Below are positions 9,070-64,000 of a DNA stretch of 64,000 nt, piece after piece. Below the pieces are notes generated by a model. The model was not told the DNA's origin and made no database searches. It saw only the letters and a list, made by a program, of their open reading frames with translations. Made by a program: the position numbers and the translations under genes. How positions within the stretch are numbered: the first letter of the stretch is position 1; the number at the start of each line of letters is the position of its first letter. Source of the DNA: Haliotis cracherodii (taxonomy: Eukaryota); NCBI RefSeq assembly GCF_022045235.1, contig NW_027266266.1, positions 5,017,848 to 5,081,847 of the forward strand, written 5' to 3'.

Positions 9070-10429
9070 TGTTTCAGGCTCTCATAAAGATTACTTGCAG
9101 ACTGGTTGAAAGGTTGGTCAAGGACGTTTAATAAAACGACTACATTAAATATAATACAAGCTGTTGTGTATATTGATGTAGTCATAAACTTAGCGTATTA
9201 CAGTACTCAAGTACTTTCGCAAATATAAAAAATGGTGCCATGGCACTGTAGCTCACCTGAATATGTAGTCAGCACTTTAGAAAACAAAGACACACAAAAA
9301 CAAAAGTTGATGTCAACACTGATATTTAAATATTGTCTGCATAAATTTTAAAAACTAATACTAAAATCTACCGTGTATGACCGTAGAATAAGAATATGTT
9401 GACATCTAATCGTGAAACTACAACAAATATTACTTTTAACGAGTCAAAGTACGGCAGTTATTAGATATGTATCCATTCTCTGTCAACTAATGTTCGTTTA
9501 AGGGTGTCAATAGCAGTAATATGATCGTGGTTGCTGTAAATAATGGTGAGTTGGTGCTGTCACGGAATGTGATAAAGCGGAACGGGGCAAACCGAAGCTG
9601 TAAGTATCGGAGGGACACAGGATTTCGCCAAAACTAATGTTAATTTAACTGAATGAAATTTTGATTAAAATTGATAAAATACATTTCGAGATAACAAACA
9701 TGAGTAAAGATATACAATGAACACTTTTTATTACCGATGGTGTAACAACAGGATTAACTTGCATAATATAATATGTATTTGTTGATATTCTATTTCCGAT
9801 GATGATGAGACATAGTTTCAGGTTGGAGGTCAGGCTTATCTACCGCACATAACATTTCGAAACAGATTTCAAGGACCAAGTTAATACCTCGGCTTATCTA
9901 TGAGATCGGCTTATCTACGGTCATATACGGTAATGAATTGAACATGATATGACGTCATCACAAGGAGAAACATGTCTGCCATTGACCGCTCCCTCAGTTT
10001 CCAACTTTCAGTGCAGAAGAAATTTACAGAGTAAATATGTATTTTGAGAGAATTTAAGAGCAGGGTCAAAAGAAGGTAAAATATTAAAATATGGCCACAA
10101 AAAATAACTTATCCCACAAATAGCAGAATAGATACCAAATTTCAATACATTTTTACAAACAATGACTCAGTTATGGCCATAAATAGCTTTCAATATGGCT
10201 GCCGTGTGTGAGTTCAAACGACATCTCATGTGAAAATCAGTTTGAAATTATAACACACTTACAGGAACAATCTTGGCAGCTAATGGAAACACCTCAGTGG
10301 AAACAATTCATGTTTTCAAAAAGCCCAAGAAGGCAAAACTATCTCCCCAACACATCTACCGGCCAACTGATCATGTATTTGTCGACAAAATCTGTGCACA
10401 TATTTAGGTGAAAACAACAGTGATCAAGA

Positions 10430-10592
10430 GGAGTGAGTGAGTGAGTATGATTTACGCTGCTTTTAGCAATATTCCAGCAATATCACAGCGGAGGACACCA
10501 GAAATGGGCTTCACACATTGTACCCATGTCGGGAATCGAACCCGGGTCTTCAGCATGACGAGCGAATGCTTTAACCACTAGGGTGATCGAGA
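10430..10592 (-). mobile_element. SINE family A
   Basis: gagtgagtgagtgagtatgatttacgctgcttttagcaatattccagc...gggaatcgaacccgggtcttcagcatgacgagcgaatgctttaaccactaggg. Confidence 0.8.
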
Positions 10593-12744: not shown

Positions 12745-12992
12745 TAGACCCCATTGGCATGTTATTTGTTTGTTTGTTTGTTTTTTTGTTTAACTCGCAC
12801 TCAGCAATATTCCAGCTATATGACGGCGGCCTGTAAATAATCGAGTCTGGACCAGACAATCCAGTCATTGATACCATGAGCAACGATCAAGGCAATTGAG
12901 ATACGATGACATGCATCAACCAAGTCAGTGAGCCTGACAACCCGATTCCGTAAGTTGCTGAAGAGCTATTCTACCCAAGGTCTTCATGGGTC
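12745..12992 (-). mobile_element. SINE family C
   Basis: tgtttgtttgtttgtttttttgtttaactcgcactcagcaatattccagctatatgacggcggcctgtaaataatcgagtctggaccagacaatccagtcattgataccatgagcaacgatc. Confidence 0.8.
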
Positions 12993-16904: not shown

Positions 16905-17130
16905 TTGGGACGTTGGTTGGTTTGTTGTTTTACGCCGCACTAAGCAATATTCCAGCTATATGACGGCAGTCTGTAAATAATCGAGTCTGGACCAGACTAT
17001 CCAGTGACTGATATAATGAGCATCGATCCACGCCGTCGGGGTACGATTACACGCAATCAACCAAGTTACCGAGCTCGACTACCCGATCCATTTAGTAGCT
17101 TCGTACAACTAGCATAGGTTGCTGTGCACC
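16905..17130 (-). mobile_element. SINE family C, 3' truncated
   Basis: ggttggtttgttgttttacgccgcactaagcaatattccagctatatgacggcagtctgtaaataatcgagtctggaccagactatccagtgactgatataatgagcatcgatccacgcc. Confidence 0.75.
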
Positions 17131-31978: not shown

Positions 31979-32089
31979 GTTGTGGGAGTAGTGAACATCA
32001 CCACTCTAACTAACCGTCAGTACTGTGTGATTCTCGACCCCGCCGACGAGAGCGGCAGACCACAGCTGGGGAGGAAGAAGCTTATCAAG
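31979..32089 (+). CDS. MVP: MVP exon 6 ([37 protein letters not shown])
   Basis: Acceptor is tgtttcag|GTT. The exon is 37 codons and runs phase 0 to phase 0. Matches human [37 protein letters not shown]. Donor is AAG|GTAATA. Position is not anchored by an ORF-track entry, so it may be off by 1 nt. Confidence 0.88.
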
Positions 32090-32094
32090 GTAAT

Positions 32095-33425
32095 ACACGT
32101 TCCGTAACGTAACTCACTCCGTACCATCACACATCATCACATCACTCACATACACCATTACACATCACCATAACATCACTCACACCACCATCACACATCA
32201 CCGTAACATGACTAACACCACATCACATGTCATCACATCACTCACACAACATCACACATCACCGTAACATCTCTCACACCCTCCATCACACATCACCGTA
32301 ACATCACTCACACCACATCACACATCACCGTAACATCTCTCACACCCTCCATCACACATCACCGTAACATCACTCACACCACCATCACACATCACCGTAA
32401 CATCACTCACACCCACCATCACACATCACCGTAACATCACTCACACCCACCATCACACATCACCGTAACATCTCTCACACCCACCATCACACATCACCGT
32501 AACATCGCTCACACCCACCATCACACATCACCGTAACATCACTCACACCCACCATCACACATCACCGTAACATCACTCACACCACCATCACACATCACCG
32601 TAACATCACTCACACCCACCATCACACATCACCGTAACATCTCTCACACCCACCATCACACATCACCGTAACATCGCTCACATCCACCATCACACATCAC
32701 CGTAACATCACTCACACCCACCATCACACATCACCGTAACATCACTCACACCCACCATCACACATCACCGTAACATCTCTCACACCCACCATCACACATC
32801 ACCGTAACATCACTCACACCACCATCACACATCACCGTAACATCACTCACACCCACCATCACACATCACCGTAACATCACTCACACCCACCATCACACAT
32901 CACCGTAACATCACTCACACCCACCATCACACATCACCGTAACATCACTCACACCACCATCACACATCACCGTAACATCACTCACACCCACCATCACACA
33001 TCACCGTAACATCACTCACACCCACCATCACACATCACCGTAACATCACTCACACCCACCATCACACATCACCGTAACATCACTCACACCACCATCACAC
33101 AACACCATAACATCGCTCACACCCATCACAGAACACCATAACATCACTCACACCCATCACAGAACACCATAACTTACCTCACATCCACCATCACACAGCA
33201 CCATAACATCGCTCACACCAACCATCACACATCATCACATCACTCACACCACCATCACACATCATCACATCACTCACACCCTCCATCACACATCACCGTA
33301 ACATCACTCACACCACCATCACACATCATCACATCACTCACACCCTCCATCACACATCACCGTAACATCACTCACACCACCATCACACATCATCACATCA
33401 CTCACACCCTCCATCACACATAATC
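32095..33425. repeat. Minisatellite in MVP intron 6: about 41-bp unit (CATCACACATCACCGTAACATCACTCACACCCAC) x about 32, beginning about 10 nt after the exon-6 donor
   Basis: Direct periodicity over 1.3 kb. Each unit contains CCGTAACA, which echoes the exon-6 donor context aagGTAATAcacgttccGTAACGTAAC. Confidence 0.95.
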
Positions 33426-33619
33426 AAGGTAACACGTTCCTTTTAATCACACACAATCAAGCTGTGCCTCATCAGTCTGGTAAAGGCATTATGATAATTT
33501 TAAAGAAATTTTCCATTTCAAACTTTAATGCACATTATTAATTTTCTTCATTATACAACTGACAATTAGACTGTAATTTACATAATCAGCATGTTTAAAA
33601 TTTGTTTGTTTTCCTTCAG

Positions 33620-37606: not shown

Positions 37607-37800
37607 CGGGGCGGTCGGGTAGCCTAGTGGTTAAAGCGTTCGCTCATCACGCTAAAGACCCAGGTTCGATTCCCGACATGGGTACAATGTGTGAAGCCCA
37701 TTTCTGGTGTCCCCCGCCGTGATATTGCTGGAATATTGCTAAAAGCGGCGTGAAACCATACTCACTCACTCACTCACTCACTCACTCACTCACTCACTCA
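37607..37800 (+). mobile_element. SINE family A, full-length reference copy (in MVP intron 11)
   Basis: gggtagcctagtggttaaagcgttcgctcatcacgctaaagacccaggttcgattcccgacatgggtacaatgtgtgaagcccatttctggtgtcccccgccgtgatattgctggaatattgctaaaagcggcgtgaaaccat(actc)n. Confidence 0.85.
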
Positions 37801-38469: not shown

Positions 38470-38695
38470 TCTCACTCGTGTGGGGCGACTATGCTTGTCG
38501 TAAAAGGCGACTAACGGGATCGGGTGGTCAGGCGTGCTGACTTGGTTGATGCATGTCATCGTATCCCAATTGCGAGGTTCGATGCTCATGATGTCAATCA
38601 CTGGATTTTCTGGTCCAGACTTGATTATTTTCAGACTGCCGTCATGTTGCTGGAATATTGCTGAGTGGGACGTTAAACAACAAACAAACAAAACA
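38470..38695 (+). mobile_element. SINE family C (in MVP intron 12)
   Basis: gtggggcgactatgcttgtcgtaaaaggcgactaacgggatcgggtggtcaggcgtgctgacttggttgatgcatgtcatcgtatcccaattgcgagg...gctgagtgggacgttaaacaacaaacaaacaaaac. Confidence 0.85.
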
Positions 38696-39465: not shown

Positions 39466-39501
39466 TCTTCTACTTCTATTGACATTTTATTTTGATTACA
39501 G

Positions 39502-39846
39502 GAGTCCGAGCTGGAGCGTCTCACCCAGGCACGTGATGCTGAATTGAGGTACGTCAAGGAACAGAATGATCTTGAACTTGATAAATCCCGCGAGGTCTCT
39601 TCCATTGAGACCCAGAAGTTCAAGGAAATGGTCAGTGCAGTGGGGGCAGACACTCTGCGCACGATGGCTTCCGCTGGGCCGGAGTTGCAGGTGAAGCTGC
39701 TGCAGTCTCTGGGACTCAAGTCCACACTGATCACTGATGGCAGCAGCCCCATCAACCTGTTCAACACCGCCAACGGCCTCATCGGTGGAATGGTGCCGTA
39801 CAAGAAGCGCAAGACTGGAGAGAGTGATGAAGAAGATGAAGCATAA
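39502..39846 (+). CDS. MVP: MVP exon 14, terminal ([114 protein letters not shown])
   Basis: Acceptor is ttgattacag|GAG. Frame is anchored by ORF 39544..39846, which ends in TAA at 39844-39846. Matches human ...[56 protein letters not shown]. Confidence 0.94.
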
Positions 39847-40139
39847 AGAGAGCATTTTGATTGGTTAGGTGTAACAGAAACGAAATGATTGGTCGAATGA
39901 TGTTGGCGCTGACATTTGTATTTTCTTGTGTTTTCCATTGTTTGAGTATCAGTGTGATGTCATTAAGAATGTCAGTGTTGCTGTGTGGAGCCTGTATCAA
40001 TGACATGACCCACAGTAGGACCATAGACTTGATTGGAATTCAGTATGGAATATAATCATTTACCGACTGACCTATCATTTCTAACAGACCAAGTCAAGCT
40101 ATTGTTTATTTTGTTGAAAAACATGCATATGCTCAATGA

Positions 40140-40312
40140 AAAAGACTATCATGACGCACAGTACCTGTCACATGTTCAACGAAATAGACTATCATGACAC
40201 ACAGTTCCTGTCACGTGTTCAACGAAATAGACTATCATGACACACAGTACCTGTCACGTGTTCAGCGAAATAGACTATCACAACACAAGTTCCTGTCACG
40301 TGTTCAGCGGAA
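40140..40312. repeat. 43-bp tandem repeat x4 in the MVP 3'UTR or flank (GTTCAACGAAATAGACTATCATGACACACAGTACCTGTCACGT)
   Basis: Direct periodicity about 300 bp downstream of the MVP stop. Confidence 0.85.
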
Positions 40313-40755
40313 TACTGTCAAGCCATGATTACACTCTCATGAGTGATTTCCTATGTTAAGTGCTGTGTCATTGTCAAAATTGTTTCATTTTGTGACAGAA
40401 AGTGTTTACATTGACATTTTTGTGTTGAGAATTCTTTCAATTTCGTTCTGTTTGCACCCATCGCAGACAATAAGCAAACAAACTGTGATACAACATGTAA
40501 ATGTGCCTGTATGAGAGTGTGAAGGGGAGAAGACTGCTTAACATTTTTCACAAGATTGCAATATGATGTAGATTTGATTTTGTTGAGTAGAACCAGCATA
40601 ATATAGTATCATGTTTTGTTCATGTATGTGTATCAAGTACCACAGGTTTGTTAGGTCTATGCTATTGTGGTGTCTCCACGAGAAACTGTACAGTACAACT
40701 CTTTGTATGATACATACTGTGTGGTTTATTTACACAAAGTATTGTTACTTAACGA

Positions 40756-41514: not shown

Positions 41515-41815
41515 CAACCCTGGTCTCTGACTCTGGTTGTTGTTGTTGGTTTGTTGTTTAACGCCGCACTCAGCAATATTCCAGCTATATGACAGCGGTC
41601 TGTAAATAATTGAGTCTGGACCAGACAATCCAGTGATTGACACCCTGAGCATCGATCTACGCAATTGGGATACGATGACATGCATCAACCAAGTCGGCGA
41701 GCCGGACCACCCGATCCCGTTGGTCGCCTACTTCAACAAGCATAGTCGCCTTTTACGACAAGCATGGGTTGCTGAAGACCTTTCCTAGCCCTGGCCTTTA
41801 CGGGTCGTCGGGCAT
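41515..41815 (-). mobile_element. SINE family C
   Basis: ggttgttgttgttggtttgttgtttaacgccgcactcagcaatattccagctatatgacagcggtctgtaaataattgagtctggaccagacaatccagtgattgacaccctgagcatcgatctacgcaattgggatacgatgacatgcatcaaccaagtcggcgagccggaccacccgatcccgttggtcgcc...ccctggcctttacgggtcg. Confidence 0.85.
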
Positions 41816-46450: not shown

Positions 46451-46919
46451 GGCCATTGAGAAGTATTCACCAAATTCATGGATTGAAGGCTAATGAATAT
46501 GCTGTGTGTTGCTTCAAATGCCCTTCTTGCTTTGATATTGACATGTTCTGCCAAGTTTACTTACAATGACTGATTCCACATATATAAGGCCTGCTCAGAG
46601 ATCCACAGTAAGTGACAGTAAAAATTCCCAATACCTCAGAATTTACAAAAAATAAGAATATTTTTAAAAAAATCAAATTTTGAACAATATCCCAATTTTG
46701 TCCCAATTTGCCTGCCAGAGGCACTAAGTTTGGAATCCAATGCTTCAAGATATACAATGTTTTTTCTGTAAGTGAGGAGGACCTGAACTTTTTGAAATAA
46801 TTTCATAGAACATTTTTTTCATTACAACTGACCATGTTACCAACTCAAACAAAAACTTATGTTGTTGCAAAATTACATTTTGCAGCATTTCCTGGATCGT
46901 AGTTTTTCTGATCCCCCCC

Positions 46920-46937
46920 ACCCACACAGACACACAG

Positions 46938-47010
<73 letters not shown>

Positions 47011-47020
47011 CACACACAGG

Positions 47021-47054
<34 letters not shown>

Positions 47055-47055: not shown

Positions 47056-47689
47056 TCAGATTCTGGTGACTTATGGCCATTGTATAAAGTCCATCATGTA
47101 ACTACTGTACAAGCTGAAACAAACAATTTGAGACGCGCAACAAAAATATAGTTTAAAAACATGAAACTAATCTAAGAAAATACATGATTAGGAAAATACA
47201 TTGTGTACAAATGGGATTGAATAATACAAGTGTGCTATTATGCTCGTTGCAATGCTATATTTCTGACAACATTCTATGAATAAATACTGGTAACATAAGC
47301 TGAAGCCAATCTGACAGCACACGGTAACTGAAGTTGTGGACAGTCGTGTAAAATCCTCAAACAAGATCACACCTTTTTTTCACTGTTCTTGATAAGGCGC
47401 CATTTATCATATCATCCAAACCTGGCTTCCACAGCAGATACCACCTGGGATATATTGGGACAACGAATTGCATCACAATGCTTTGCAGACCATTGGGGAA
47501 GTCATCAGGCACATGACATCACCGATCTCTTTGTTATTGAGGATGGTTAGCAGTGCTTTTTATACTCAAGACACTGGTTATTACTATTTACAAAATAAAA
47601 CTGGGTGGACGAATGATCTGAATGATAAATACAATCTCACCCTTGTGTCTTTGGATGTCAAATATTTCAACACTCTGGATGAAATGCTT

Positions 47690-47948
47690 ATATTATATAT
47701 ATCAACACTTGTGGATGAAAGTTTGATATCAAATATATCAACACTCGTGAATGAAAGTTTGATATCAAATATATCAACATTCATGGATGAAAGTTTGATA
47801 TGAAAAATATCAACACTTGTGGATGAAAGTTTGATATGAAATATATCAACACTCGTGGATGAAAGTTTGATATGAAATATATCAACACTCGTGGATGAAA
47901 GTTTGATATGAAATATATCAACACTCGTGGATGAAAGTTTCATATCAA
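47690..47948. repeat. 36-bp tandem repeat x7 (ATATCAACACTCGTGGATGAAAGTTTGATATGAAAT)
   Basis: Direct periodicity. Source of ORFs 47468..47803 and 47584..47961. Confidence 0.9.
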
Positions 47949-48187
47949 ATATCCTCGGCAACCCTTGGAGTCTTAAATTTTATCCCCATATGTTGATATA
48001 TTTGATATCAGAAGACACTCGAGTGAGATGCTCTACGTATCAAAGTGGGTAGGTTATACACATGCACAAACATGACAAAGAGACTTTAACTTTTAAAATT
48101 TCAATATCTGCGCCATAGTTAGAACTGTACTGAACAAGCCATTCATATCTTTTCTTAAGAAATGAGAACTCACGTAAACTAAAAGTT

Positions 48188-51690: not shown

Positions 51691-52379
51691 AGGAAGGTTT
51701 GGGGAGAGGATGTCGAAGGCGTCAATACAGGACATGAGTTCATCCCTGCAATATTTCAAAATCCCAATCTTGCTTGGTATGCCATATGGGTTATATCACA
51801 AGTAATATTTTCCTGTAACCATGGAAACCTGAATTATTAGAATAGTTTCAAACAAAGATGATAAGATAATAAAGGATATGTCTTCCACCGCACTTGTCTA
51901 AAAATGTGTGTTTGTTTATTACCGCCTATGTTGGAGATCAGTGTTAAAACAGTGCATCATTTCTTCACGCTTAGAATTTCCTATGTACACTACTTAGTTC
52001 TCACTCATAAATAGAATATATATAACATTACAATCTGCCATCAAGGTGTCATTGAAAACACTAACAAATAGATCTCAGTGTACATCATTGTATCATCTAA
52101 CACAGAAAAGGATATATGCACTAACAATTTGAATACAGAAACAATTTATTTACAAGAGATCTCATGCCCGTACTAGAGATGAGGCAGGTTTGTAACTCGC
52201 ATTCTGATTGGTTAGTTAGACTGAACAGAGGAGCAATCAAATTATGAACATCAAGGGCGGGTAATTGGAGATCCCGATAACGGATCCCGCGGATAGTGTA
52301 GGTTCAAAGAAAGGCAAACCCTGGAGATATAGAGGATGAGGATTGTGTTTATTGGGTGGCTGTACTGAAACATTCTGGG

Positions 52380-52865
52380 CATCTCTAGTAACACCCCATC
52401 TCTAGTAATAGCCCATCTATAGTAACAGCCCATCTCTAGTAACACCCCCATCTATAGTAACAGCCCATCTCTAGTAACACCCCCATCTATAGTAACTCCC
52501 CATCTCTAGTAACAGCCCATCTCTAGTAACAGCCCATATCTAGTAACACCCCCAAAACTAGTAACACCCCCATCTCTAGTAACATCCCCATCTCTAGTAA
52601 CACCCCCATCTCTAGTAACAGCCCATCTCTAGTAACACCCCCATCTCTAGTAACAGCCCATCTATAGTAACAGCCCATCTCTATTAACACCCCCATCTAT
52701 AGTAACAGCCCATCTCTAGTAACACCCCCATCTATAGTAACTCCCCATCTCTAGTAACAGCCCATCTCTAGTAACAGCCCATCTCTAGTAACACCCCCAT
52801 CTATAGTAACACCCCAATCTCTAGTAACACCCCCATCTCTAGTAACACCCCCATCTTGTTGTGTA
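52380..52865. repeat. 17-bp tandem repeat x about 28 (CCCCATCTCTAGTAACA, with AGCCCATCT variants)
   Basis: Direct periodicity. Confidence 0.9.
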
Positions 52866-52965
52866 AACATGTAGCAATCTAACAATAAGTTTTACAAAAT
52901 TCCTGTTTCCTCTTAAAAAAAGGAATATGGTCTTACAAAGCATTGATAACTTAGGTCCTGCAAGG

Positions 52966-53137
52966 CATCAATGTGAGTGAGTGAGTGAGTTTGATTTTAT
53001 GCCGCTTTTAGCAATATTCTGGCGGGGGACACCAGAAATGGGCTTCACACATTGTACCCATGTTGAGAATCGAACCCGGATCTCGGCGTGACGAGCAAAC
53101 GCTTTAACCACTAGGCTACCCGACCGCCCCCATCAAT
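52966..53137 (-). mobile_element. SINE family A
   Basis: gtgagtgagtgagtttgattttatgccgcttttagcaatattctggcgggggacaccagaaatgggcttcacacattgtacccatgttgagaatcgaacccggatctcggcgtgacgagcaaacgctttaaccactaggctacccgaccgcc. Confidence 0.8.
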
Positions 53138-53194
53138 GTGAGTATCTAGGTTTTCAGATAACAAGGTGTAATCTCAGACCCCGCATTATCCTTG

Positions 53195-53640
53195 AGTAAG
53201 CATTGATTAACAGTATTTCAGTTATATCAGGCCAGCTTAATGTGGGAGGAAAGCTTGACCCATGAGTGAGTGAGTTGGGTTTAACGCCGCTTTTAACTGT
53301 ATTCCAGTTATATCGCGGCGTGTCAGCTTAATGTGAGAGGAAAGCCGGAAGTGATGCAGGTCTCAGACGTTTACCACTTCGGTGAAACCCAAGAGCACGG
53401 GTATGGTGCTGACAAACCTAGAAACATAATCGGGCGAACCGGGATTCCAATCCACAATAATAGGTCTCTCATGTGCCCAAGGGACGCAACTCTGCACAGC
53501 GAATCGCGGCGCCTCAGATGACTCGGCCACCCGTGCCCCCTTGAATAATGGGTCGGTGCTGACAAACCATAATCAGGACATATCTGGGATCTAAACTCAC
53601 AATCGTCGGGTTCAGGCACAGCTCTGCAGAGTGAATTGTG
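53195..53640 (-). mobile_element. SINE family B cluster: a full copy at about 53268-53535 flanked by partial copies
   Basis: gagtgagtgagttgggtttaacgccgcttttaactgtattccagttatatcgcggcgtgtcagcttaatgtgagaggaaagccggaagtgatgcagg...gatgactcggccacccgtgccccc. The head fragment repeats at 53540-53640. Confidence 0.8.
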
Positions 53641-54083
53641 GGGCCTTGGATGCCTTAATCGTCTTCAAGATGTGAAGATTATGATTGCACAGAGTTGACG
53701 AGAATGGACATGATGGATAGCACATGTTTGACAAGGGTTGCATGTGTCTTTGCTCTCATAAACAAAATAAATAAATACTCAAAATATTGACGCAGCAATA
53801 CTTTCATCATGTCAACGAGTAGAATTATGAAAAAACAAATGTCTGTTTTTCATCTCCCGATGAAGCATTTCACACACACATTCTAAAATCCTTAAATGCC
53901 ATGCATTTTCATTACTACTTCACAAAAAAATATCCTTTGATAACTCAATTCACACAAATAGCTTGCTTATAAATGTAATGAAAGAAAATATTTGTCATAC
54001 ATTATAAAAATAGTTGATGAAGGTTGACAAGAGATGACTGGCTGATGATGAGGGTTGTGCTGTGACCGGAACCGCGACGAGGG

Positions 54084-54262
54084 CTATGACCGGAACGTGT
54101 GAACAACGCGCACCACGTACTGTCGGCACATGGGGCACTCGGCGAGGCGCTTGCCGCAGGATGTGCACGTGATCATGTGACCACACTCCAGTAGAACACA
54201 GTCTATAGTATTGTCCATGCATATCTTACACAGGTCCTGCTCAGAACTGGTGGTTATCCCTG
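54084..54262 (-). CDS. RNF34-like terminal RING exon ((A)[58 protein letters not shown])
   Basis: Reverse-strand translation gives a C3HC4 RING finger that is near-identical to the human RNF34 C-terminus ([50 protein letters not shown]). The stop codon TAG is at 54084-54086. The acceptor is tttccag|CA. Position cross-checked against the overlapping out-of-frame ORF 53995..54222(-). Confidence 0.85.
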
Positions 54263-54339
54263 CTGGAAAGGAAGAAGTAACTGTGACAAAAAGTGAAAGG
54301 AATGTCTTTTACCGGGACTTGTTCTAAAATGGCAAAGAC

Positions 54340-54702
54340 ATCTTTCCGAGGAAAGGGAGTTAACTGACTATTTAAGTCCAGTTTCCACCCTCGCTAACTA
54401 GTCTGGAATTTCTTGGCTCAATCGCAGCGCCAAAAGTGGCTATTACTATTTATGTCCCTTCTATATCCCTCCTATTGATCAATCAGATTCCACCTTATAT
54501 CACTTGCACTTGCCTAAAACAAAATGGCATCACCCAGTGAAGATTATCTCATCGATAATCAAGATCTATATTGTAAAAAAAAGGTCTTACTTATGCACAG
54601 ACTTGTTAGCCCAGCCAAAATATAACTCCATAATTCCAGCCTAGTTCGGCAAGGATGGAAACTGGACTTTTATAGTCAGTTAAATCCCTTGCCCCAGGAA
54701 GA
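54340..54702. mobile_element. MITE family E, shorter copy with an internal deletion
   Basis: Left end is tttccgaggaaagggagttaactgactatttaagtccagtttccaccctcgctaactagtctggaatt. Right end is ccagcctagttcggcaaggatggaaactggacttttatagtcagttaaatcccttgccccagg. Confidence 0.75.
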
Positions 54703-55562
54703 TGGTCCAAAGAGTGAATGACACTTAATCCTAACATGATTAACATGATGAGCTGTAAGCTCACTGATACCTTTTGCCAGCTGAGTAGGCTGGTTATCCT
54801 CAGATTCTCTGGGGTTTTCCTTTTGCTTTTATGGAATTACAAAAAAATGAAACTGTAAAACTGTAAAGTCGCTAGTTGACCACTTGAAAGACATGTATGA
54901 AAATGCTATTGGTTCACGATGTAAGTAAACCCTTCACTGATTGAACTTAAGTCGTCATGGAAACCAGAAAAAAATCAAATATTTTATTTTAGGAATATTT
55001 TTTTTTTCTAGTGGCATGGGATAATAAGGTATTTGCTGTTTTTTGTCTGTTTTTTTTGGGGGGGGGAGGGGGGGATTTTATAACAAATTGACATTTAACT
55101 AATACGCGGATGTAATGTTGAATGTTCTTATCAAATGCATGTTCTATACTCAGAGGTTATCATGTGGCAGTTAAGATATCTTACCCCATATCAAATCCAA
55201 GACCCCCATATCAGCTGTCTTGGGTTGATAAGAGATATGATATGGAAACTGCCATATAATGATCTTTTTATCATATATCATAACATCAAATGGTAAAGTG
55301 TTACTGTTTGAAAGGGAATGCAATACAATTTCATCCTGTTTGGAAAACATTGTCTCGTAAAGCAAGCTGAGCAGACACACAGGTAAGGGACATCACTCTA
55401 ATTTCTTACCACCCAGGCTGATATCAATTCCCCGTCCAAAATGCTTGACACGTTTTATCAGATACGGATCAGGTTATTACACCCCCTATGATATGACTAT
55501 CTCCATGTTGGCTCTATTGCACATGCCAAGAGCATCATATCACTGAAAGGTATGTGATAAAA

Positions 55563-56000
55563 TATATTACATATACTACCAGAGCTCCAGATAACCTTTT
55601 GAGCAATTGAGTTTATACTCAAGGGATATGATTTTAATTGGGTTATTACATTTTTCATTGGGAAATTCATCACTCTATTGAGTTTTCCCCAAGTTAGTGA
55701 CCATTTTAAGATTTAAAAAAAAATGAAATATTGTTTCAGATGTACCCCGGGTATATAACTGTTCTAAATATATAGGCTTAACTGAAAGTAAATTAGCTCG
55801 TAACTGTGTTTCGGAAATTTGCACGCACGCTGAAAAAGCTTCATTGGGTATTTACGCGTGGCGTTTTTATACATTTGAGTTTTTTATTTAACGCATGCGC
55901 TTCTGTATGCAAGTTAACTAAAATTTGTTGGTTTTTTTTTTTTTTTTTGGGGGGGGGGGGATTTTATGCAAATACACTGCTTATCTGTAGCTTATCTGTA
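55563..56000 (+). repeat. Dispersed repeat family I, copy 2, with a T17 G12 homopolymer junction
   Basis: Shares the consensus of 10615-11075. Contains tttttttttttttttttggggggggggggattttatgcaaatac. Confidence 0.7.
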
Positions 56001-56439
56001 CAACTCAAAAGAACTTGAAGAAAACCAAATGTTTTCATGTTACTATAGTTAATCAGTCATACCATGAAAGACCACTTAGTCATATAAAAAAAAATGGGGT
56101 GTTTTTAAAAAAAAATTTAGTAGGACATATTAGAAGTCGAACATGTCATATTTAAGAGCCGTATTCAATGGGAGGAGTTATTGGGTCAATACATCATGAC
56201 ACATATCAACTAGATGAAATAATGTCGGAACAAGGCTTAAACTGACCAGAGGATGGCCATCTTGACAGACAGCCATTCGATCAATGACCAAAGAACACTA
56301 TTTATACTTACTTAATTTATCTGCATTCTCTCTCATCTTTTCAGCTGCAAATTGAGGAAAGAAATGTAAGAAAGGACTAAACAATGACCCAAACCCAGCT
56401 CTCTAACAGGTCAGGCAAAATTGGGCTTAATGTTTTGTC

Positions 56440-56705
56440 ATAAATAGCAACGTACATGCACGTTTGAGTGGGTTTGCGGCTGCTTGTACTAGTCCGGACT
56501 GATGCCGATTTATAGTGCTAGCCTGGGTACTGAGACCATGCCGCAGTTTAACATACCCCACTCAGACACAGTATACGCCAGACAGGGTAACAACAAGTAC
56601 CATCTTTTAACATCTTTTGGTATGACGTGGCCGGTGATCGAACCGCGGCCCTTCTGCTCTCAGGACGGACGCTCTACCAGTAGACCACGGCGGTGCTCTA
56701 GGACA
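56440..56705 (-). mobile_element. SINE family D
   Basis: Reverse complement of 6795-7010: ...gccagacagggtaacaacaagtaccatcttttaacatcttttggtatgacgtggccggtgatcgaaccgcggcccttctgctctcaggacggacgctctaccagtagaccacggcggtgctc. Confidence 0.7.
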
Positions 56706-56799
56706 GGAATAGTTACACTTTTCTGCAAGTGTTCTATGGTCACAGTATGGAAAATTCAGAAGTGTTTCTTCTCCAACATTACTTCTGTGACATGAAGTA

Positions 56800-56957
56800 T
56801 GTTCATAACATTCTAATATTGCAATGAGCCAGCAATGTCACATTTGGGGACACTAGAACTGGAATTCATGTATTGTACACACGTGGGGAGTTGAACCCAG
56901 CACTGTGGCGTTACAAGCCATGCTTTCATCATTAAGCTACCCCAGTGCCCCTTTTTT
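56800..56957 (-). mobile_element. SINE family A-like, diverged
   Basis: agcaatgtcacatttggggacactagaactggaattcatgtattgtacacacgtggggagttgaacccagcactgtggcgttacaagccatgctttcatcattaagctacccc. Confidence 0.5.
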
Positions 56958-57179
56958 TTGCCTGTAGCAAGGGCTACAATATTACTCCCGTCAATGTATC
57001 AGTGTGCATTCATCCTCAGCTCCCCGGGGAGTATACAACCCAAGCTGCCTGTGAGGCACTATAAAATAAAAAATAACATTACCATGTAATTCTACTGGGT
57101 ACCCGTTCACTGATGGCTGAACGGAGGTATCTTGTGAACCAAGTCAACTGAGGAGACATCATACGCTTGATGTAAATTC

Positions 57180-57800
57180 AGGCTACTGGTCTCCTGTCTA
57201 GAAGCTACTGGTCTCCTGTCTAGAAGCTACTGGTCTCCTGTCTAGAAGCTACTGGTCTCCTGTCTAGAAGCTACTGGTCTCCTGTTAAGTAGCTACTGGT
57301 CTCCTGTCTAGAAGCTACTGGTCTCCTGTCTAGTAGCTACTGGTCTCCTGTCTAGAAGCTACTGGTCTCCTGTCTAGTAGCTACTGGTCTCCTGTCTACA
57401 AGCTACTGGTCTCCTGTCTAGAAGCTACTGGTCTCCTGTTAAGTAGCTACTGGTCTCTTGTCTAGAAGCTACTGGTCTCCTGTCTAGAAGCTACTGGTCT
57501 CCTGTCTAGTAGCTACTGGTCTCCTGTCTACAAGCTACTGGTCTCCTGTCTACAAGCTACTGGTCTCCTGTCTAGAAACTACTGGTCTCCTGTTAAGTAG
57601 CTACTGGTCTCTTGTCTAGAAGCTACTAGTCTCCTGTTAAGTAGCTACTGGTCTCCTGTCTAGAAGTTACTGGTCTCCTGTCTAGAAGCTATTGGTCTCT
57701 TGTCTAGAAGCTACTGGTCTCTTGTCTAGAAGCTACTGGTCTCCTGTCTAGTAGCTACTTGTCTGCTGTCTCCTAGCTACTTATCTCCTGTCTCGAAACT
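57180..57800. repeat. 22-bp tandem repeat x about 28 (CTACTGGTCTCCTGTCTAGAAG) in the RNF34-like intron
   Basis: Direct periodicity, ending about 110 bp from the exon at 57911-58112. Confidence 0.95.
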
Positions 57801-57910
57801 ACTTGGCTATATTTGGACATATAATGATATGATGTGCGCCAAAGCAGGCAGGTTGTATTTGGACAGAATATACCGCATGTCGCGTTGAATAATTCCTCAA
57901 TATTGTTTAC

Positions 57911-58112
57911 CTTTGTCTTTGTTGGACTGTTCTTCATTCCACAGCCGCTTCACTCTATCAGTGAGTTCCGTCTTTTCACAGCACCCCTTGTAATCGACAA
58001 AGTTGTTTGCAAGGACCTCTTTCAGTTGCCTGACCGTCAGTGTGTCGACTTCCCCCACAGTGGCAATATTTTCAAGCCTCATACGCGGGACTCGGTCTAA
58101 CGTTGGTGACTC
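57911..58112 (-). CDS. RNF34-like pre-RING exon ([67 protein letters not shown])
   Basis: Frame is anchored by ORF 57897..58136(-). Acceptor is ggtattgcag|GAG and donor is AAAG|GTAAAC, ending in phase 1. This fits the 2-nt phase of the downstream RING exon. Matches human RNF34 [43 protein letters not shown]. Confidence 0.8.
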
Positions 58113-58239
58113 CTGCAATACCCATGTGTGAGACATTCACAGTTATGTTTCAACCTAATATTTCAGATGTGTTCAACAGGACAAGAAAATGTCTACTACA
58201 GAACAAATGTCTCTCATTATATCAATAAATTATATTTTT

Positions 58240-58500
58240 TATTGTATGTTGTTTAACGTCACATTCAGCAATATTCCAGCCACATGACGGTGGTCTGTAA
58301 ATAATCGAGTCTGAACCAGACAATTCGTTGACTGACATCATGAGCATTGATCTACGCAATTGGGATCAATAACATGCATCAACTAAGTCAGCGACCCTGA
58401 CCACTTGATCCTGTTAGTCGCATCTTACAAGCATAGTCGCCTATTATGGCAAGAATGGGTTGCTGAAGACCTATTCTAACACGATCTTCATGGGTCCAAT
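58240..58500 (-). mobile_element. SINE family C (in RNF34-like intron)
   Basis: tgttgtttaacgtcacattcagcaatattccagccacatgacggtggtctgtaaataatcgagtctgaaccagacaattcgttgactgacatcatgagcattgatctacgcaattgggatcaataacatgcatc...gggttgctgaagacctattctaacacgatcttcatgggtcc. Confidence 0.85.
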
Positions 58501-58644
58501 AAATTTTCATGTTTATGAATATACATAATCTTTTAATAAATATATGTGACCTAGATATGCCACAGTGGAAAAACCTTTCTGAACACAACCACCAGTGTCA
58601 AAGCTCCTGAATGAAGGAAAAAACAACAACAATTATTTGACTTT

Positions 58645-58862
58645 GTTTGTTTCCTGTTGAACACCACACTCAGCAATATTCCAGCAATTTGATTGCAGCC
58701 TGTAAATAATCGAGTCTGGACCAGGCAGTCCAGTGATTGATATTGTGAGCAATGATCCAAGCCATTAGGATATGATGACACGCCATCACCGAGTCTGACC
58801 ACCCAATTCATTTAGCGGCCTCTTACGACCAGCAGAGGTTGCTGTGGACAAATTCTAAACCA
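58645..58862 (-). mobile_element. SINE family C
   Basis: gtttcctgttgaacaccacactcagcaatattccagcaatttgattgcagcctgtaaataatcgagtctggaccaggcagtccagtgattgatattgtgagcaatgatccaagcc. Confidence 0.8.
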
Positions 58863-59039
58863 GGATCCCAATTGGAAATTATTCAAGTAAATATTACGCT
58901 GTGTGTTACCCAAAGGCTATATCAAAGTTGATTGTGACGCCATTTCATTATTAGAGCTAAACTGTGTCATGTGGGTCTTACCAAAGGCAAAGAGGTGAGG
59001 TGAAATTGGGTTTAACGTCATGTCCAAGATTATTGCACT

Positions 59040-59290
59040 TATATAGCGACTTGCATGTACGTGTGTGTGCGTGTGGCTGCTTGTACTAGTCCGGACTGAT
59101 GCTGATTTATAGTGCAGTATACTGACTCCGAGCCAACCAGTCCTTGTTTTAGCCCCTTAATGCCGAGCGCCAGACAGGGTTACAACCAGTAACATCAACA
59201 ACGTCTTTTGGTTTGACACGTTTAGGGATTCAACCCCGCCCCTTCCGCTCTCCGGGCGCACGCTCTACCACTCGACCACGGAGGTGGTCC
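59040..59290 (-). mobile_element. SINE family D
   Basis: gctgcttgtactagtccggactgatgctgatttatagtgcag...gccagacagggttacaaccagtaacatcaacaacgtcttttggtttgacacgtttagggattcaaccccgccccttccgctctccgggcgcacgctctaccactcgaccacggaggtggtcc. Confidence 0.7.
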
Positions 59291-59641
59291 AAAAGCACAG
59301 AGGCATATGCAGGGGTTAACCTTGACTTACAAAACTGGGGTCCAGGGACCTACAATAATTAATTTCAAGAGTCCTTACAGGAAATATGAGGGTCCTGTAA
59401 ATTAATGAAAAAGTGGTACTACTTCAGAATTTATTGAGAGTTCGTGATGACTGTTCTGCAGTCACATCAGTTGAGAACTTCATCTCAGTTGTTTGCATGT
59501 GGGCATTATCAGCACACAAGATCAGCACTGGCTGGATACTTATAAGTGGTCCTAAAGCTTTCACTTTTATCCTTCGGGCCTCGAGGCTTCAATGTTTGAA
59601 TCACCACTGATCAGTGCTGATGGTAGGAGTAGCCTGAGTAC

Positions 59642-59728
59642 CTGCATGGGTTCCTCTGGAGACGGGACACTGTCTCTCGGTGTGTCTGTAGGGGGCACAT
59701 CGGGGACACTGTCTTCTCTCATCCGCTC
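59642..59728 (-). CDS. RNF34-like candidate linker exon (ERMREDSVPDVPPTDTPRDSVPSPEEPMQ)
   Basis: Acceptor is ttatttacag|GAG and donor is CAG|GTACTC. The exon is 87 nt, phase 0 to phase 0, with a Ser/Pro/Asp/Glu-rich composition like the RNF34 linker. Frame is anchored by ORF 59567..59776(-). No strong homology, so this is tentative. Confidence 0.4.
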
Positions 59729-59759
59729 CTGTAAATAAACTCTGATGCAGACAAATTCA

Positions 59760-60150
59760 TCTTTGAAAGTAGACAAACAGATTTACAGCTCTCTCAAGTC
59801 CTGCCTACCTGAGTTGATTGAAAAAAACATCATCTTCAACTCTATTCAATCCAAGCAAGTCTTACCACCAACTGCTGTACCAGTCTCTCTAGCTCCACCT
59901 CTCTGAGTTGATTGACATTTATACATCCCTCCCACTCTACTCAACACAAGCAAGTCTTACCACCAACTGCTGCACCAGTCTCTCAAGCTCCACCTCTCAG
60001 AGTTGATTGACATTTATACATCCCTCCTACTCTACTCAACACAAGCAAGTCTTACTACCAACTGCTGCACCAGTCTCTCAAGCTCCACCTCTCAGAGTTG
60101 ATTGACATTTATACATCCCTCCTACTCTACTCAACACAAGCAAGTCTTAC
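59760..60150. repeat. About 95-bp tandem repeat x4-5 that duplicates the 3' end and donor site of the RNF34-like FYVE exon
   Basis: The unit ...TCAACACAAGCAAGTCTTACCACCAACTGCTGCACCAGTCTCTCAAGCTCCACCTCTCAGAGTTGATTGACATTTATACATCCCTCCTACTCTAC occurs at about 59851, 59937 and 60032, with a degenerate copy at about 59760. The copy at 60127 runs straight into the real exon (60151..). Confidence 0.85.
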
Positions 60151-60444
60151 CACCAACTGCTGCACCAGTCTCTCGTGCTCGGCCTCTGAGTTTGAAACAG
60201 ATCCTCGGCTGTAGTGGCGTATCACAAGGTCAATGAGGTCATGTTTTTCACGGCACATATTGGTTGGAATGTTGTGGCTGTCAAGGAAACATCTCATGTC
60301 CTTGACCTTCCACTCTTGCAAGATTTGGCGGCTAAAGTTCCCAGAGACAATAATTCGGCACTTTTGACATTGTCTATCACGTTTATTTGCCTCTTTTGGC
60401 AGACAAGTTGAGCAAAATTGGCGTTTACAATCTCTGCACATTTT
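60151..60444 (-). CDS. RNF34/RFFL (CARP)-like E3 ligase, FYVE-like zinc-finger exon (KMCRDCKRQFCSTCLPKEANKRDRQCQKCRIIVSGNFSRQILQEWKVKDMRCFLDSHNIPTNMCREKHDLIDLVIRHYSRGSVSNSEAEHERLVQQLV)
   Basis: Frame is anchored by ORF 60127..60465(-). The acceptor tttcttctcttccag|AAA has a strong polypyrimidine tract and the donor is GTG|GTAAGA. Matches human RNF34 ...HVCCDCKKDFCSVCS...CSTC...[38 protein letters not shown] in motif order and spacing. Confidence 0.8.
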
Positions 60445-60679
60445 CTGGAAGAGAAGAAATGTCAATTACTGTACAATGTTTATGGACTCTTAAATATTGG
60501 TTGTACCTATTGATACCATTACATTAAACTATAGACCTGATTAACAGAGCAGAACGAATGCTCCCTCGATTTCAACATTAGTCATGTCATTTAATGTATG
60601 AACCATAATTTGATGAACATGTTGGAGACTTAATTTCCTTCTTATATCAAATGATAATTTTAAGGTTAATCCATGTTTA

Positions 60680-60960
60680 TCCTGTATCGTTGTGTTTTGT
60701 TTGTTTGTTGTTTAACGCCGCACTCAGCAATATTCAAGCTATATGACGGCTGTCTGTAAATAATTGAGTCTGGACCAGATAATCCAGTGATTGACATCAT
60801 GAGCATCGATCCACACAATTGGGATACGATGACATGCATCAACTAAGTCGGTGAGTCTGACCACCCGATCCCGTTAGTCGCCCCTTACTACAAGCATTGT
60901 TGGGGCAAGCATGGGTTGCGGAAGACCTATTCTACCCCGGATCTTCACGGGTCTGTATCA
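60680..60960 (-). mobile_element. SINE family C
   Basis: gtgttttgtttgtttgttgtttaacgccgcactcagcaatattcaagctatatgacggctgtctgtaaataattgagtctggaccagataatccagtgattgacatcatgagcatcgatccacacaattgggatacgatgacatgcatc...gggttgcggaagacctattctaccccggatcttcacgggtc. Confidence 0.85.
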
Positions 60961-60992
60961 TTGTGGATGGAAACTAGTGTCATGTTTGTTTG

Positions 60993-61160
60993 AGTGAGTG
61001 AGTGAGTATGGTTTTACGCCGCTTTTAGCAATATTCCAGCAATAGCATGGCGCGGGACACCAGAAATGTGCTTCACACATTGTACCCATGTCGGGAATCG
61101 AACCCGGGTCTTCGGCGTGACGGGTGAACACTTTAACCACTAGGCTACCCGACCGCCCAA
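60993..61160 (-). mobile_element. SINE family A
   Basis: gagtgagtgagtgagtatggttttacgccgcttttagcaatattccagcaatagcatggcgcgggacaccagaaatgtgcttcacacattgtacccatgtcgggaatcgaacccgggtcttcggcgtgacgggtgaacactttaaccactaggctacccgaccgcc. Confidence 0.85.
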
Positions 61161-61589
61161 CATCATGTTTGTCTGAACATGCCTTTAATCATGTTAATAA
61201 ACAACTTACTTCTTACTGACTCAAGAATTACTTAAGATTATTATTGGTAATCGATATTGATGTAGGAATGATAACAGCTTTTCACTGTCAAGTCTTGATA
61301 TTGGTATACACAATGTCGACAATGACAACATTTCTACAAAAACATTTCTTATTTCAACTGCATTTTTCACACAATTATCTGACATAAGATGTCCCACTGG
61401 GTTAGAAGCTGACTAGTGAGGATCACATCATCATGAAAGACTGGGTTCAATAATAACAATAATAACAATAATAATAACAATAATAACAACAAAAATAATC
61501 ATCATAATAATGCACCAGATTCCATTTAACTAAGTGAATGCTCGAAACACAAAACCATTAGCACCCCAATCAATGGATTGGTGCGCTCT

Positions 61590-62690
61590 TTTCTCTTTCT
61601 CAGCTCTCTGGAAGCATACAACCAAACTGCCTGAGAGTCACATTACCATCTCATCCTACCGGGTACCCATTCACTGCTGACTGTGTGGAGCATACAACCA
61701 AGCTGCCTGTGAGTCACATTACCATCTCATCCTACCGGGTACCCATTCACTGCTGACTGTGTGAAGCATACAACCAAGCTGCCTGTGAGTCACATTACCA
61801 TCTCATCCTACCGGGTACCCATTCACTGCTGACTGTGTGGAGCATACAACCAAGCTGCCTGTGAGTCACATTACCATCTCATCCTACCGGGTACCCATTC
61901 ACTGCTGACTGTGTGGACCATACAACCAAGCTGCCTATGAGTCACATTGCCATCTCATCCTACCGGGTACCCATTCACTGCTGACTGTGTGGACCATACA
62001 ACCAAGCTGCCTGTGAGTCACATTACCATCTCATCCTACCGGGTACCCATTCGCTGCTGACTGTGTGGAGCATACAACCAAGCTGCCTGTGAGTCACATT
62101 ACCATCTCATCCTACCGGGTACCCATTCACTGCTGACTGTGTGGAGCATACAACCAAGCTGCCTGTGAGTCACATTACCATCTCATCCTACCGGGTACCC
62201 ATTCACTGCTGACTGTGTGGAGCATACAACCAAGCTGCCTGTGAGTCACATTACCATCTCATCCTACCGGGTACCCATTCACTGCTGACTGTGTGGACCA
62301 TACAACCAAGCTGCCTGTGAGTCACATTACCATCTCATCCTACCGGGTACCCATTCACTGCTGACTGTGTGGAGCATACAACCAAACTGCCTGTGAGTCA
62401 CATTACCATCTCATCCTACCGGGTACCCATTCACTGCTGACTGTGTGAAGCATACAACCAAGCTGCCTATGAGTCACATTGCCATCTCATCCTACCGGGT
62501 ACCCATTCACTGCTGACTGTGTGGAGCATACAACCAAGCTGCCTATGAGTCACATTACCATCTCATCCTACCGGGTACCCAATCACTGCTGACTGTGTGG
62601 AGCATACAACCAAGCTGCCTATGAGTCACATTGCCATCTCATCCTACCGGGTACCCATTCACTGCTGACTGTGTGTCATCATGCCAAGAC
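61590..62690. repeat. 76-bp satellite x about 14 (CATACAACCAAGCTGCCTGTGAGTCACATTACCATCTCATCCTACCGGGTACCCATTCACTGCTGACTGTGTGGAG)
   Basis: Direct periodicity. A single-copy diverged relative lies at 57040-57125 (caacccaagctgcctgtgaggcac...ctactgggtacccgttcactgatggctgaacgg). Confidence 0.95.
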
Positions 62691-62907
62691 ATGGCTCTTG
62701 ATATCAACCACTGGCTTTGATTTGATTATTTCCATGCCACTGTGATACAGATAATGGTTACCAATGTTGCTTTGAAACAAGAGAAGGGATTGATCACTTT
62801 ATCTTCCTGCAAAGGGGAGACCTGATATTTTGTTCAAGATGGATATCTTTTTTGTTCTCAGGTTTTTTATCTTTTCCATTATTGTCATGATGTTAGCTCT
62901 GAATCCT

Positions 62908-63068
62908 CAGGTGGGGTAGCCTAGTGGTTAAGGGTTCCCCTGTCCGGCCAAAGACTCAGGTTTGATTACCCACATGGGTTCAATGTGTGAAGCCCATTTC
63001 TGGTGTCCCCTGCCATGATATTGCTGGAATATTGCTAACAACGGCGTTAAACAATACTCACTGAATCC
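62908..63068 (+). mobile_element. SINE family A
   Basis: ggtggggtagcctagtggttaagggttcccctgtccggccaaagactcaggtttgattacccacatgggttcaatgtgtgaagcccatttctggtgtcccctgccatgatattgctggaatattgctaacaacggcgttaaacaatactcactg. Confidence 0.8.
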
Positions 63069-64000
63069 TCAAACTCTTAATAATCAAATCGATTTAATTC
63101 TCCATGGATTCTCTACCTTAAATCATACATTTATCTGAGTTTATGTTACTTCACTTTAATTAACTGAAAGTCACAGCATCAGGCACGAATGTCAGAAGTT
63201 AAAGGCTGATATCAACTGCCTTCACCAGTTTTATCACGTGAAACACCAATACTGACCAGTGTTCATTATCAAGGGGGTACAAGGGTCCTTGGAATTGCTT
63301 TCTAATACAGCAGAACACGGATATAACAAACTACAAGGGACCAGAGAAATCAGTTCATTATATCCCTTGTTCGTTATACACGTTTTCGCTCGGAAACGTC
63401 CGCCATCTTGGATAAGACAAAACACAATACACGTAATTGCAGAGTTACACGTGAAATCTTCATGGCCTAATTTCACTGCAAGTTCGTCAGCTTTGGTCTT
63501 TCTTTGTTTTTATGCCAGCATCAACAGCATTAACAATTCTCAATTTCATGTCTGAACTGATAGCTTTCCTCTTATTATTGCCCGCCATGACAGCATATGC
63601 AAGTGTACTAACACTTGGACACAATCTCGTAAAATGTATATGTTTAATGTTTGTTTAACAGACAAGATTACATGTACAGGTAAGATTAACACAATGCAAT
63701 TTAACAAGAATGGTCCGTCACCGCTGATCGTATTGATTCGCCACCATTGTGTTAATTCGCCACTGATTGCGTACAGCCAATTGTCAGTGACACTTGACAC
63801 TGAGTGAGATTTCTCAGTTCGCTATACACGTCACTAATTAGTGATAGATGGGCTTGTCGGTGATCAGATATCAGTTCGCTGTATCCATTCGTTCGCTGGA
63901 GAGAGTTCGTTATATACGTAAATTTTCTATGATATATTACAGGAAATAAATCGGGGATTTTTTAACAGTTCATTGTATCCGTTTGTTCGCTATCCGTTTG

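What the first reader, a model, noticed from the sequence alone, without database searches (positions are those of the whole stretch)
54084..60444. Convergent RNF34/RFFL (CARP)-like RING E3 ligase gene on the minus strand, 3' portion
Three exons match human RNF34 in order: a FYVE-like zinc finger plus SAP-like helix (CRDCKRQFCSTC...CQKC...KVKDMRCFLDSHNIPTNMCREKHDLIDLV), a pre-RING block ([36 protein letters not shown]), and a C-terminal RING ([50 protein letters not shown]). The phases fit: the 57911-58112 exon ends in phase 1 and the RING exon starts with 2 nt. The N-terminal exons must lie beyond 60444, possibly outside the window. MVP and this gene are tail to tail, with about 14 kb of repeat-rich DNA between their 3' ends.
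Basis: partly seen in the sequence, partly recalled or inferred. Interest (0 to 1): 0.5.

Follow-up and report, generated by a model that had tools for sequence, protein, structure and literature searches.

The report
Abalone RNF34/RFFL RING ubiquitin-ligase gene

Summary
The minus strand of 54084-60444 carries open exons with canonical AG/GT borders. They encode the second half of a FYVE-like zinc finger, a SAP-like helix, an acidic/proline linker, the RNF34L-like third domain and a C-terminal C3HC4 RING.

The spliced product is 264 aa. It is 100% identical to residues 42-305 of XP_071093776.1, [quoted passage not shown]. It differs at 4 residues from the H. rufescens orthologue.

- The gene has five coding exons in the window, not three. 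These are 60444-60151, 59728-59642, 58112-57911, a missed 33-nt micro-exon at 56344-56312 (AEKMRENADKLT, phase-preserving) and 54262-54084.
- Exon 1 (aa 1-41) is not in the window. By collinearity with H. rufescens it lies about 300-430 bp beyond base 64000.

The neighbour claim holds. MVP on the + strand ends at 39846, which is 14.2 kb from the RING stop. The gap holds tandem arrays and no ORF longer than 125 aa.

The gene is under purifying selection: 1.8% CDS divergence from H. rufescens against 5-10% in introns.

Nothing here is novel. The only curiosity is a 95-bp minisatellite that duplicates the exon-2 splice donor, with 3.5 copies here and 15.3 in H. rufescens.

The parts
60445..64000 (-). 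3' part of intron 1 (the intron continues beyond the window end); contains a 76-bp x14 tandem array and SINE-like repeats
   Evidence: No match to aa 1-41 in the window. Window 63993 aligns to L001 10432, whereas H. rufescens exon 1 is at L001 10001-10123. Tandem repeats.
60151..60444 (-). Coding exon 2 (294 nt, phase 0 to 0): second half of the FYVE-like zinc finger (CRDC, CSTC, CQKC) plus the RNF34/RFFL SAP helix, aa 42-139 of the 305-aa protein
   Evidence: Acceptor ...ttccag|AAAATG and donor TTGGTG|gtaaga. Pfam SAP_RNF34_RFFL 52.8 bits. Alignment to PDB 1Y02 at E = 3.4e-13. 100% identity to P0001.
59839..60174 (.). 95-bp minisatellite, 3.5 copies. The first copy spans the 3' end of exon 2 and the real splice donor; three further copies in intron 2 each carry a donor-like GTAAGA
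   Evidence: TRF. Alignment of copies. 15.3 copies at the same place in H. rufescens.
59642..59728 (-). Coding exon 3 (87 nt, phase 0 to 0): acidic/proline-rich linker ERMREDSVPDVPPTDTPRDSVPSPEEPMQ
   Evidence: AG/GT borders. tblastn to P0001 aa 138-168.
57911..58112 (-). Coding exon 4 (202 nt, phase 0 to 1): RNF34L-like third (SAP/ARMET_C-like) domain, [23 protein letters not shown]...
   Evidence: AG/GT borders. Pfam PF22968 at 71.8 bits.
56312..56344 (-).
   Evidence: ttgcag|CTGAAAAG...AAATTAA|gtaagt. tblastn. Present in the H. cracherodii, H. rufescens, H. asinina and H. rubra proteins. 0 mismatches to H. rufescens.
54084..54262 (-). Coding exon 6 (179 nt including stop TAG at 54086-54084): C3HC4 RING finger at the extreme C-terminus
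   Evidence: Acceptor ttccag|CAGGGA. Pfam zf-C3HC4_3 at 49.8 bits. All eight metal ligands invariant in 12 homologues.
52348..54083 (-). Putative 3' UTR up to the first AATAAA (52353-52348). Inferred only; includes a 17/35-bp tandem array at 52380-52856
   Evidence: Pattern scan. TRF. No transcript data available.

Best explanation
The region holds coding exons 2-6 of the single abalone pro-orthologue of vertebrate RNF34 (CARP1) and RFFL (CARP2/rififylin). The window is almost certainly from Haliotis cracherodii, and the gene is the one annotated there as XP_071093776.1. The protein is a membrane- or endosome-associated RING E3 ubiquitin ligase. The C-terminal C3HC4 RING recruits a ubiquitin-charged E2. 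The N-terminal FYVE-like eight-cysteine finger is followed by two SAP-like helical modules, with a disordered acidic/proline linker between them; together these position the enzyme and select substrates. What is shown here: gene structure, intact ORF, canonical splice sites, domain content, ligand conservation, orthology and purifying selection. What is inferred from the vertebrate family: ligase activity, endosomal location and the kind of substrate (caspase-8/10, p53, RIP1 and misfolded membrane proteins in vertebrates). Also inferred is that the conserved N-terminal MGAG... start, which is encoded outside the window, serves as a lipid anchor.
For: Five exons with AG/GT borders and consistent phases give a 264-aa open product. 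That product is 100% identical to residues 42-305 of XP_071093776.1 from H. cracherodii, with 4 aa differences from H. rufescens XP_048257052.1. Pfam RNF34L-like_3rd, SAP_RNF34_RFFL and zf-C3HC4_3 all pass their curated cut-offs. The finger and SAP part aligns to the solved CARP2/SAKURA FYVE-type domain 1Y02 at E = 3.4e-13, and the RING aligns to cIAP/XIAP RINGs at about 1e-10. Six finger cysteines and all eight RING ligands are invariant across 12 homologues from molluscs to mammals. The locus is collinear with the annotated H. rufescens gene at 90-95% identity. CDS divergence is 14/795 nt (9 synonymous, 5 non-synonymous), and all four amino-acid changes lie outside the FYVE-like finger, SAP helix and RING finger; introns diverge by 5-10%. 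Identity to a Xenopus RFFL (44%) and a rodent RNF34 (43%) is about equal, which fits a pro-orthologue. Family functions are taken from PMC8959631.
Against: No transcript evidence could be examined here, and the NCBI proteins are model predictions. The FYVE-like finger scores below Pfam's cut-offs: FYVE 23.7 bits against 27.8, and FYVE_CARP1-2 15.7 bits against 27. Exon 1, and with it the first CxxC pair and the start codon, is not in the window. No biochemical data exist for any molluscan member as far as I searched; I ran only one literature search.
Confidence: 0.95

Rival explanations
1. The reader's exact model, with the pre-RING exon spliced directly to the RING exon and the micro-exon skipped, is the real or a major mRNA isoform.
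For: The 33-nt exon keeps the phase, so skipping it stays in frame and gives ...NKDKAGITTSS.... The aligned stretch between the third domain and the RING varies in length among homologues. Some relatives are annotated with several isoforms, e.g. H. asinina X1 and Gigantopelta X2.
Against: All four annotated Haliotis proteins include the micro-exon. It has strong splice sites (ttgcag| and |gtaagt). It has 0 mismatches to H. rufescens in an intron background of about 8% divergence.
Confidence: 0.15
2. The exons are a non-functional remnant (pseudogene), or the FYVE, pre-RING and RING pieces belong to different genes.
For: The start codon and exon 1 are not visible in the window. The introns are packed with repeats.
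Against: The frame is open across all five exons with canonical splice sites. The exons are several times more conserved than the introns, and synonymous changes outnumber non-synonymous ones. The same collinear architecture occurs in single proteins of many phyla. An intact exon 1 is present in the collinear H. rufescens locus.
Confidence: 0.02

Closest known systems
XP_071093776.1, E3 ubiquitin-protein ligase RNF34-like [Haliotis cracherodii] (and XP_048257052.1 of H. rufescens)
   Same: Residues 42-305 are identical to the window's spliced product. The H. rufescens gene has the same exon structure and a collinear locus.
   Different: Nothing for H. cracherodii within the window. The H. rufescens protein differs at 4 residues. 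Its 95-bp minisatellite has 15.3 copies instead of 3.5. TRF on its gene does not report the 76-bp or 22-bp intronic arrays.
Vertebrate RNF34 (CARP1, hRFI, Momo) and RFFL (CARP2, rififylin, SAKURA, FRING)
   Same: The domain order is the same: FYVE-like finger, SAP helix, disordered linker, RNF34L-like third domain, C-terminal IAP-type C3HC4 RING. Overall identity is 43-44% and all zinc ligands are conserved.
   Different: There is one gene, roughly equidistant from both vertebrate paralogues. The linker is much shorter, giving 305 aa against 372 aa for the rodent RNF34 in the alignment. The N-terminus starts MGAGAV... and lacks the MWA(S/A)CC cysteine cluster seen in the vertebrate sequences. 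The finger is below the Pfam FYVE_CARP1-2 threshold. Caspase-8/10, p53 and RIP1 targeting is known only for the vertebrate proteins (PMC8959631).
IAP-family RINGs (XIAP, cIAP1/2) and MUL1, MYLIP
   Same: The C-terminal RING is of the same zf-C3HC4_3 subtype, with E about 1e-10 to solved XIAP and cIAP RINGs.
   Different: There are no BIR, CARD or other IAP domains. Similarity is limited to the last ~50 residues.

Membership tests
RNF34/RFFL (CARP) E3 ligases | C3HC4 RING (zf-C3HC4_3 subtype) at the extreme C-terminus with all eight metal ligands | tested here: met
   PF13920 at 49.8 bits against a cut-off of 27. C217, C220, C232, H234, C238, C241, C248 and C251 of the 264-aa product are invariant in 12 homologues.
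RNF34/RFFL (CARP) E3 ligases | Family-specific SAP helix directly after the zinc finger (PF23632) | tested here: met
   52.8 bits against a cut-off of 27. Aligned to 1Y02 residues 37-110.
RNF34/RFFL (CARP) E3 ligases | RNF34L-like third domain before the RING (PF22968) | tested here: met
   71.8 bits against a cut-off of 27.
RNF34/RFFL (CARP) E3 ligases | N-terminal FYVE-like eight-cysteine finger | tested here: inconclusive
   Six of the eight cysteines (CRDC, CSTC, CQKC) are in exon 2 and are invariant. The first pair (CESC) is in exon 1, outside the window, and is seen only in the identical H. cracherodii protein. phmmer to the solved CARP2 domain 1Y02 gives E = 3.4e-13. The Pfam models stay below cut-off: FYVE 23.7 against 27.8, FYVE_CARP1-2 15.7 against 27. 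The sequence reads FKRKKMCRDC at the position where, from my own knowledge, canonical FYVE domains have R(R/K)HHCR. That is consistent with a non-canonical, FYVE-like finger.
RNF34/RFFL (CARP) E3 ligases | All domains collinear in one polypeptide | tested here: met
   The exon order on one strand matches the full-length proteins of 11 species.
RNF34/RFFL (CARP) E3 ligases | E2-dependent ubiquitin-ligase activity; binding of caspase-8/10 or other known substrates; endosomal or membrane location | not testable with these tools
   Known for the vertebrate proteins only (PMC8959631).
Expressed protein-coding gene | Spliced transcripts across the five junction pairs | not tested
   No RNA data are reachable. 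Indirect support comes from the NCBI model proteins, canonical splice sites, and exon conservation above intron conservation.

The most novel reading that the evidence does not exclude
The 95-bp minisatellite copies the end of exon 2 together with its 5' splice site. It places 3 decoy donors in intron 2 here and about 14 in H. rufescens. It might act as a copy-number-variable modulator of splicing: use of any decoy would add an in-frame stop (VRLACVE*) and yield a truncated, RING-less FYVE/SAP protein or an NMD target.
Probability: 0.05. Interest if true: 0.3.

Novelty: already known. Interest (0 to 1): 0.07.

Why it matters
It matters little. The result confirms that a tool-free reading of raw sequence recovered a real, annotated gene, its strand, its phases and its neighbour. 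It also shows the typical failure of that approach, which is missing a 33-nt micro-exon. Biologically, it documents that abalones keep a single compact RNF34/RFFL pro-orthologue lying tail-to-tail with MVP. Nothing here opens a new question.

Tried and rejected
1. I searched the window for exon 1 (aa 1-41) by tblastn with word size 2 and E up to 1000. Only noise came back, so exon 1 lies outside the window.
2. A look-up of the H. cracherodii protein's contig was not on record. I used the H. rufescens locus instead.
3. I looked for tRNA genes and Rfam families in 39900-64000, in case the intronic and intergenic repeats hid RNA genes. There were none.
4. I looked for other protein-coding genes between MVP and the RING exon. 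No ORF exceeds 125 aa, and the longest ones are translations of tandem or simple repeats.
5. None is needed, because exons 3 and 4 join directly in the annotated product.
6. I considered a pseudogene or a chimera of separate genes and rejected both (see rivals).
7. Structure prediction, fold search and the large profile searches were not run, because sequence evidence was already decisive.
Full report
**Observation**

Reading the DNA and splicing it in silico gives these exons:

- 60444-60151: 294 nt, acceptor ttccag|AAAATG, donor TTGGTG|gtaaga, phase 0 to 0.
- 59728-59642: 87 nt, tttacag|GAGCGG ... ATGCAG|gtactc, phase 0 to 0.
- 58112-57911: 202 nt, tattgcag|GAGTCA ... ACAAAG|gtaaac, ends in phase 1.
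- 54262-54084: 179 nt, ttccag|CAGGGA, starts with two bases of a codon, stop TAG at 54086-54084.

The coordinates and phases given in the finding are correct.

**Identification**

A search of the spliced product returned 491 proteins with E <= 0.001. All named ones are RNF34, RNF34-like or rififylin (RFFL), from molluscs, annelids, brachiopods, nemerteans, hemichordates and vertebrates. The best hits were:

- H. cracherodii RNF34-like, E = 7.6e-162.
- H. asinina, 86% identity.
- H. rubra, 86% identity.
- Gigantopelta aegis, 58% identity.

Pfam finds RNF34L-like_3rd (71.8 bits), SAP_RNF34_RFFL (52.8 bits) and zf-C3HC4_3 (49.8 bits), all above their curated cut-offs. Against solved structures, residues 2-76 align to the FYVE-type domain of CARP2/SAKURA (1Y02, E = 3.4e-13). 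The RING aligns to cIAP and XIAP RINGs at about 1e-10.

**Correction: a missed micro-exon**

My first model was only 96% identical to the H. cracherodii protein. The reason is that the protein carries EKMRENADKLT between ...NKDKA and GITTSS. tblastn places this peptide at 56345-56310. The DNA shows a 33-nt exon at 56344-56312 with ttgcag|CTGAAAAG...AAATTAA|gtaagt. It enters and leaves in phase 1.

With this exon the 264-aa product is 100% identical to residues 42-305 of XP_071093776.1 from H. cracherodii. The H. rufescens orthologue XP_048257052.1 differs at four residues. The window is therefore almost certainly H. cracherodii DNA, and the gene is already annotated.

**Exon 1**

Residues 1-41 (MGAGAVGGQQHPGTVVNGQEILSKTMACESCATEFTIFKRK) have no match in the window. 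In the H. rufescens locus (L001) exon 1 is at 10001-10123 and exon 2 starts at 12746. Window base 63993 aligns to L001 10432 at 95% identity. By collinearity, exon 1 should lie about 300-430 bp beyond the window end.

**Evidence that the gene is functional**

The window and H. rufescens are collinear at about 90-95% identity across introns and the 3' flank. The 795 coding bases differ at only 14 positions, 9 synonymous and 5 non-synonymous. The four amino-acid changes lie outside the FYVE-like finger, SAP helix and RING finger: one in the acidic linker, two at the start of the third-domain exon, and one just upstream of the RING. The micro-exon has no change.

In an alignment of 12 homologues, six finger cysteines and all eight RING ligands are invariant. 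Identity to a Xenopus RFFL (44%) and a rodent RNF34 (43%) is about equal. Together with one protein per Haliotis species in the hit list, this fits a single pro-orthologue of the two vertebrate paralogues.

**Mechanism**

The following is inferred, not shown. By homology the protein is a RING E3. The RING binds the E2~ubiquitin conjugate. The FYVE-like finger, the SAP modules and the disordered linker provide localisation and substrate contact.

In vertebrates RNF34 and RFFL associate with caspases 8/10. They act on p53 and RIP1, and on misfolded CFTR in post-Golgi and endosomal compartments (PMC8959631). The abalone finger reads FKRKKMCRDC where canonical FYVE domains have R(R/K)HHCR (my own knowledge). 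It also scores below the Pfam FYVE and FYVE_CARP1-2 cut-offs. Both points are consistent with a FYVE-like rather than a canonical FYVE finger.

The conserved MGAG start of invertebrate members suggests an N-terminal lipid anchor. That is inference only, and the residues are outside the window.

**Surroundings**

On the + strand, MVP exons are recognisable:

- Vault_2 at about 27.4 kb.
- Vault_3 and MVP_shoulder at about 36.1 kb.
- The last MVP ORF, 39496-39843, aligns to residues 756-850 of the 861-aa solved MVP chain at E = 2.7e-31.

The two genes are therefore tail to tail, with 14.2 kb between their stops. That interval has no ORF above 125 aa, several tandem arrays, a (CA)65 tract and dispersed repeats. 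It has no tRNA or Rfam match. The first AATAAA after the RING stop is 1730 nt downstream, so the 3' UTR may be long. This was not tested.

**Side observation**

TRF finds a 95-bp unit repeated 3.5 times at 59839-60174. The first copy spans the last ~24 bases of exon 2 by TRF coordinates, and sequence similarity reaches about 40 bases into the exon. It also includes the true donor. The next three copies, in intron 2, each keep ...CAGCAGTTGGT(G/A)|GTAAGAC.

The H. rufescens orthologue has 15.3 copies at the same position. Reading through the true donor meets a stop after seven codons, so the decoys would give truncated products if used. This is most likely a neutral minisatellite.

**Verdict**

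The exon model is corrected to five coding exons in the window. The gene is already known and annotated, and interest is low.

Noticed in passing
window 59839-60174 (and L001 12998-14441): A 95-bp minisatellite whose unit is the 3' end of exon 2 plus the 5' splice site and the start of intron 2. There are 3.5 copies here and 15.3 in H. rufescens. Each extra copy is a decoy GTAAGA donor that would lead to a premature stop if used.
   Followed up: partly
window 61613-62675: A 76-bp unit repeated 14 times (97% matches) in intron 1. TRF on the H. rufescens gene (L001 10000-19400) reports no array with this period, so this looks like a lineage-specific expansion.
   Followed up: partly
window 57182-57803: A 22-bp unit repeated 28 times in the intron between exon 4 and the micro-exon. 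The collinear H. rufescens interval is about 700 bp shorter, and TRF finds no array there.
   Followed up: partly
window 58247-58436, 58655-58840, 60705-60953; also 953-1157, 3955-4164, 5992-6186, 12755-12958, 16909-17120, 38489-38683, 41551-41745: A dispersed repeat family of about 200 bp (SINE-like) with more than 10 copies in the window at 75-90% identity, three of them inside introns of this gene. It also occurs in several copies in the H. rufescens locus. A second family of about 165 bp is at 60988-61154, 52974-53125, 37613-37776, 5509-5655 and 10440-10582.
   Followed up: no
window ~32000-33500: A strongly strand-biased, C-rich low-complexity repeat (GC skew -0.62) inside an MVP intron. 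It translates as HHITHTTSHITVTSLTP-like units.
   Followed up: no
window 40133-40314, 46919-47048, 47660-47952, 52380-52856: Tandem arrays in the MVP-RNF34 intergenic DNA: 43 bp x4.3 just after the MVP stop, (CA)65, 36 bp x8.2, and a 17/35-bp array x27 that would lie inside the putative RNF34-like 3' UTR.
   Followed up: no
protein P0003 (H. rubra XP_046548995.1): The annotated H. rubra orthologue diverges after ...GHMITCTS into an unrelated 58-residue tail that lacks the last four RING ligands. This is probably a frameshift in the assembly or a mis-annotated last exon.
   Followed up: no
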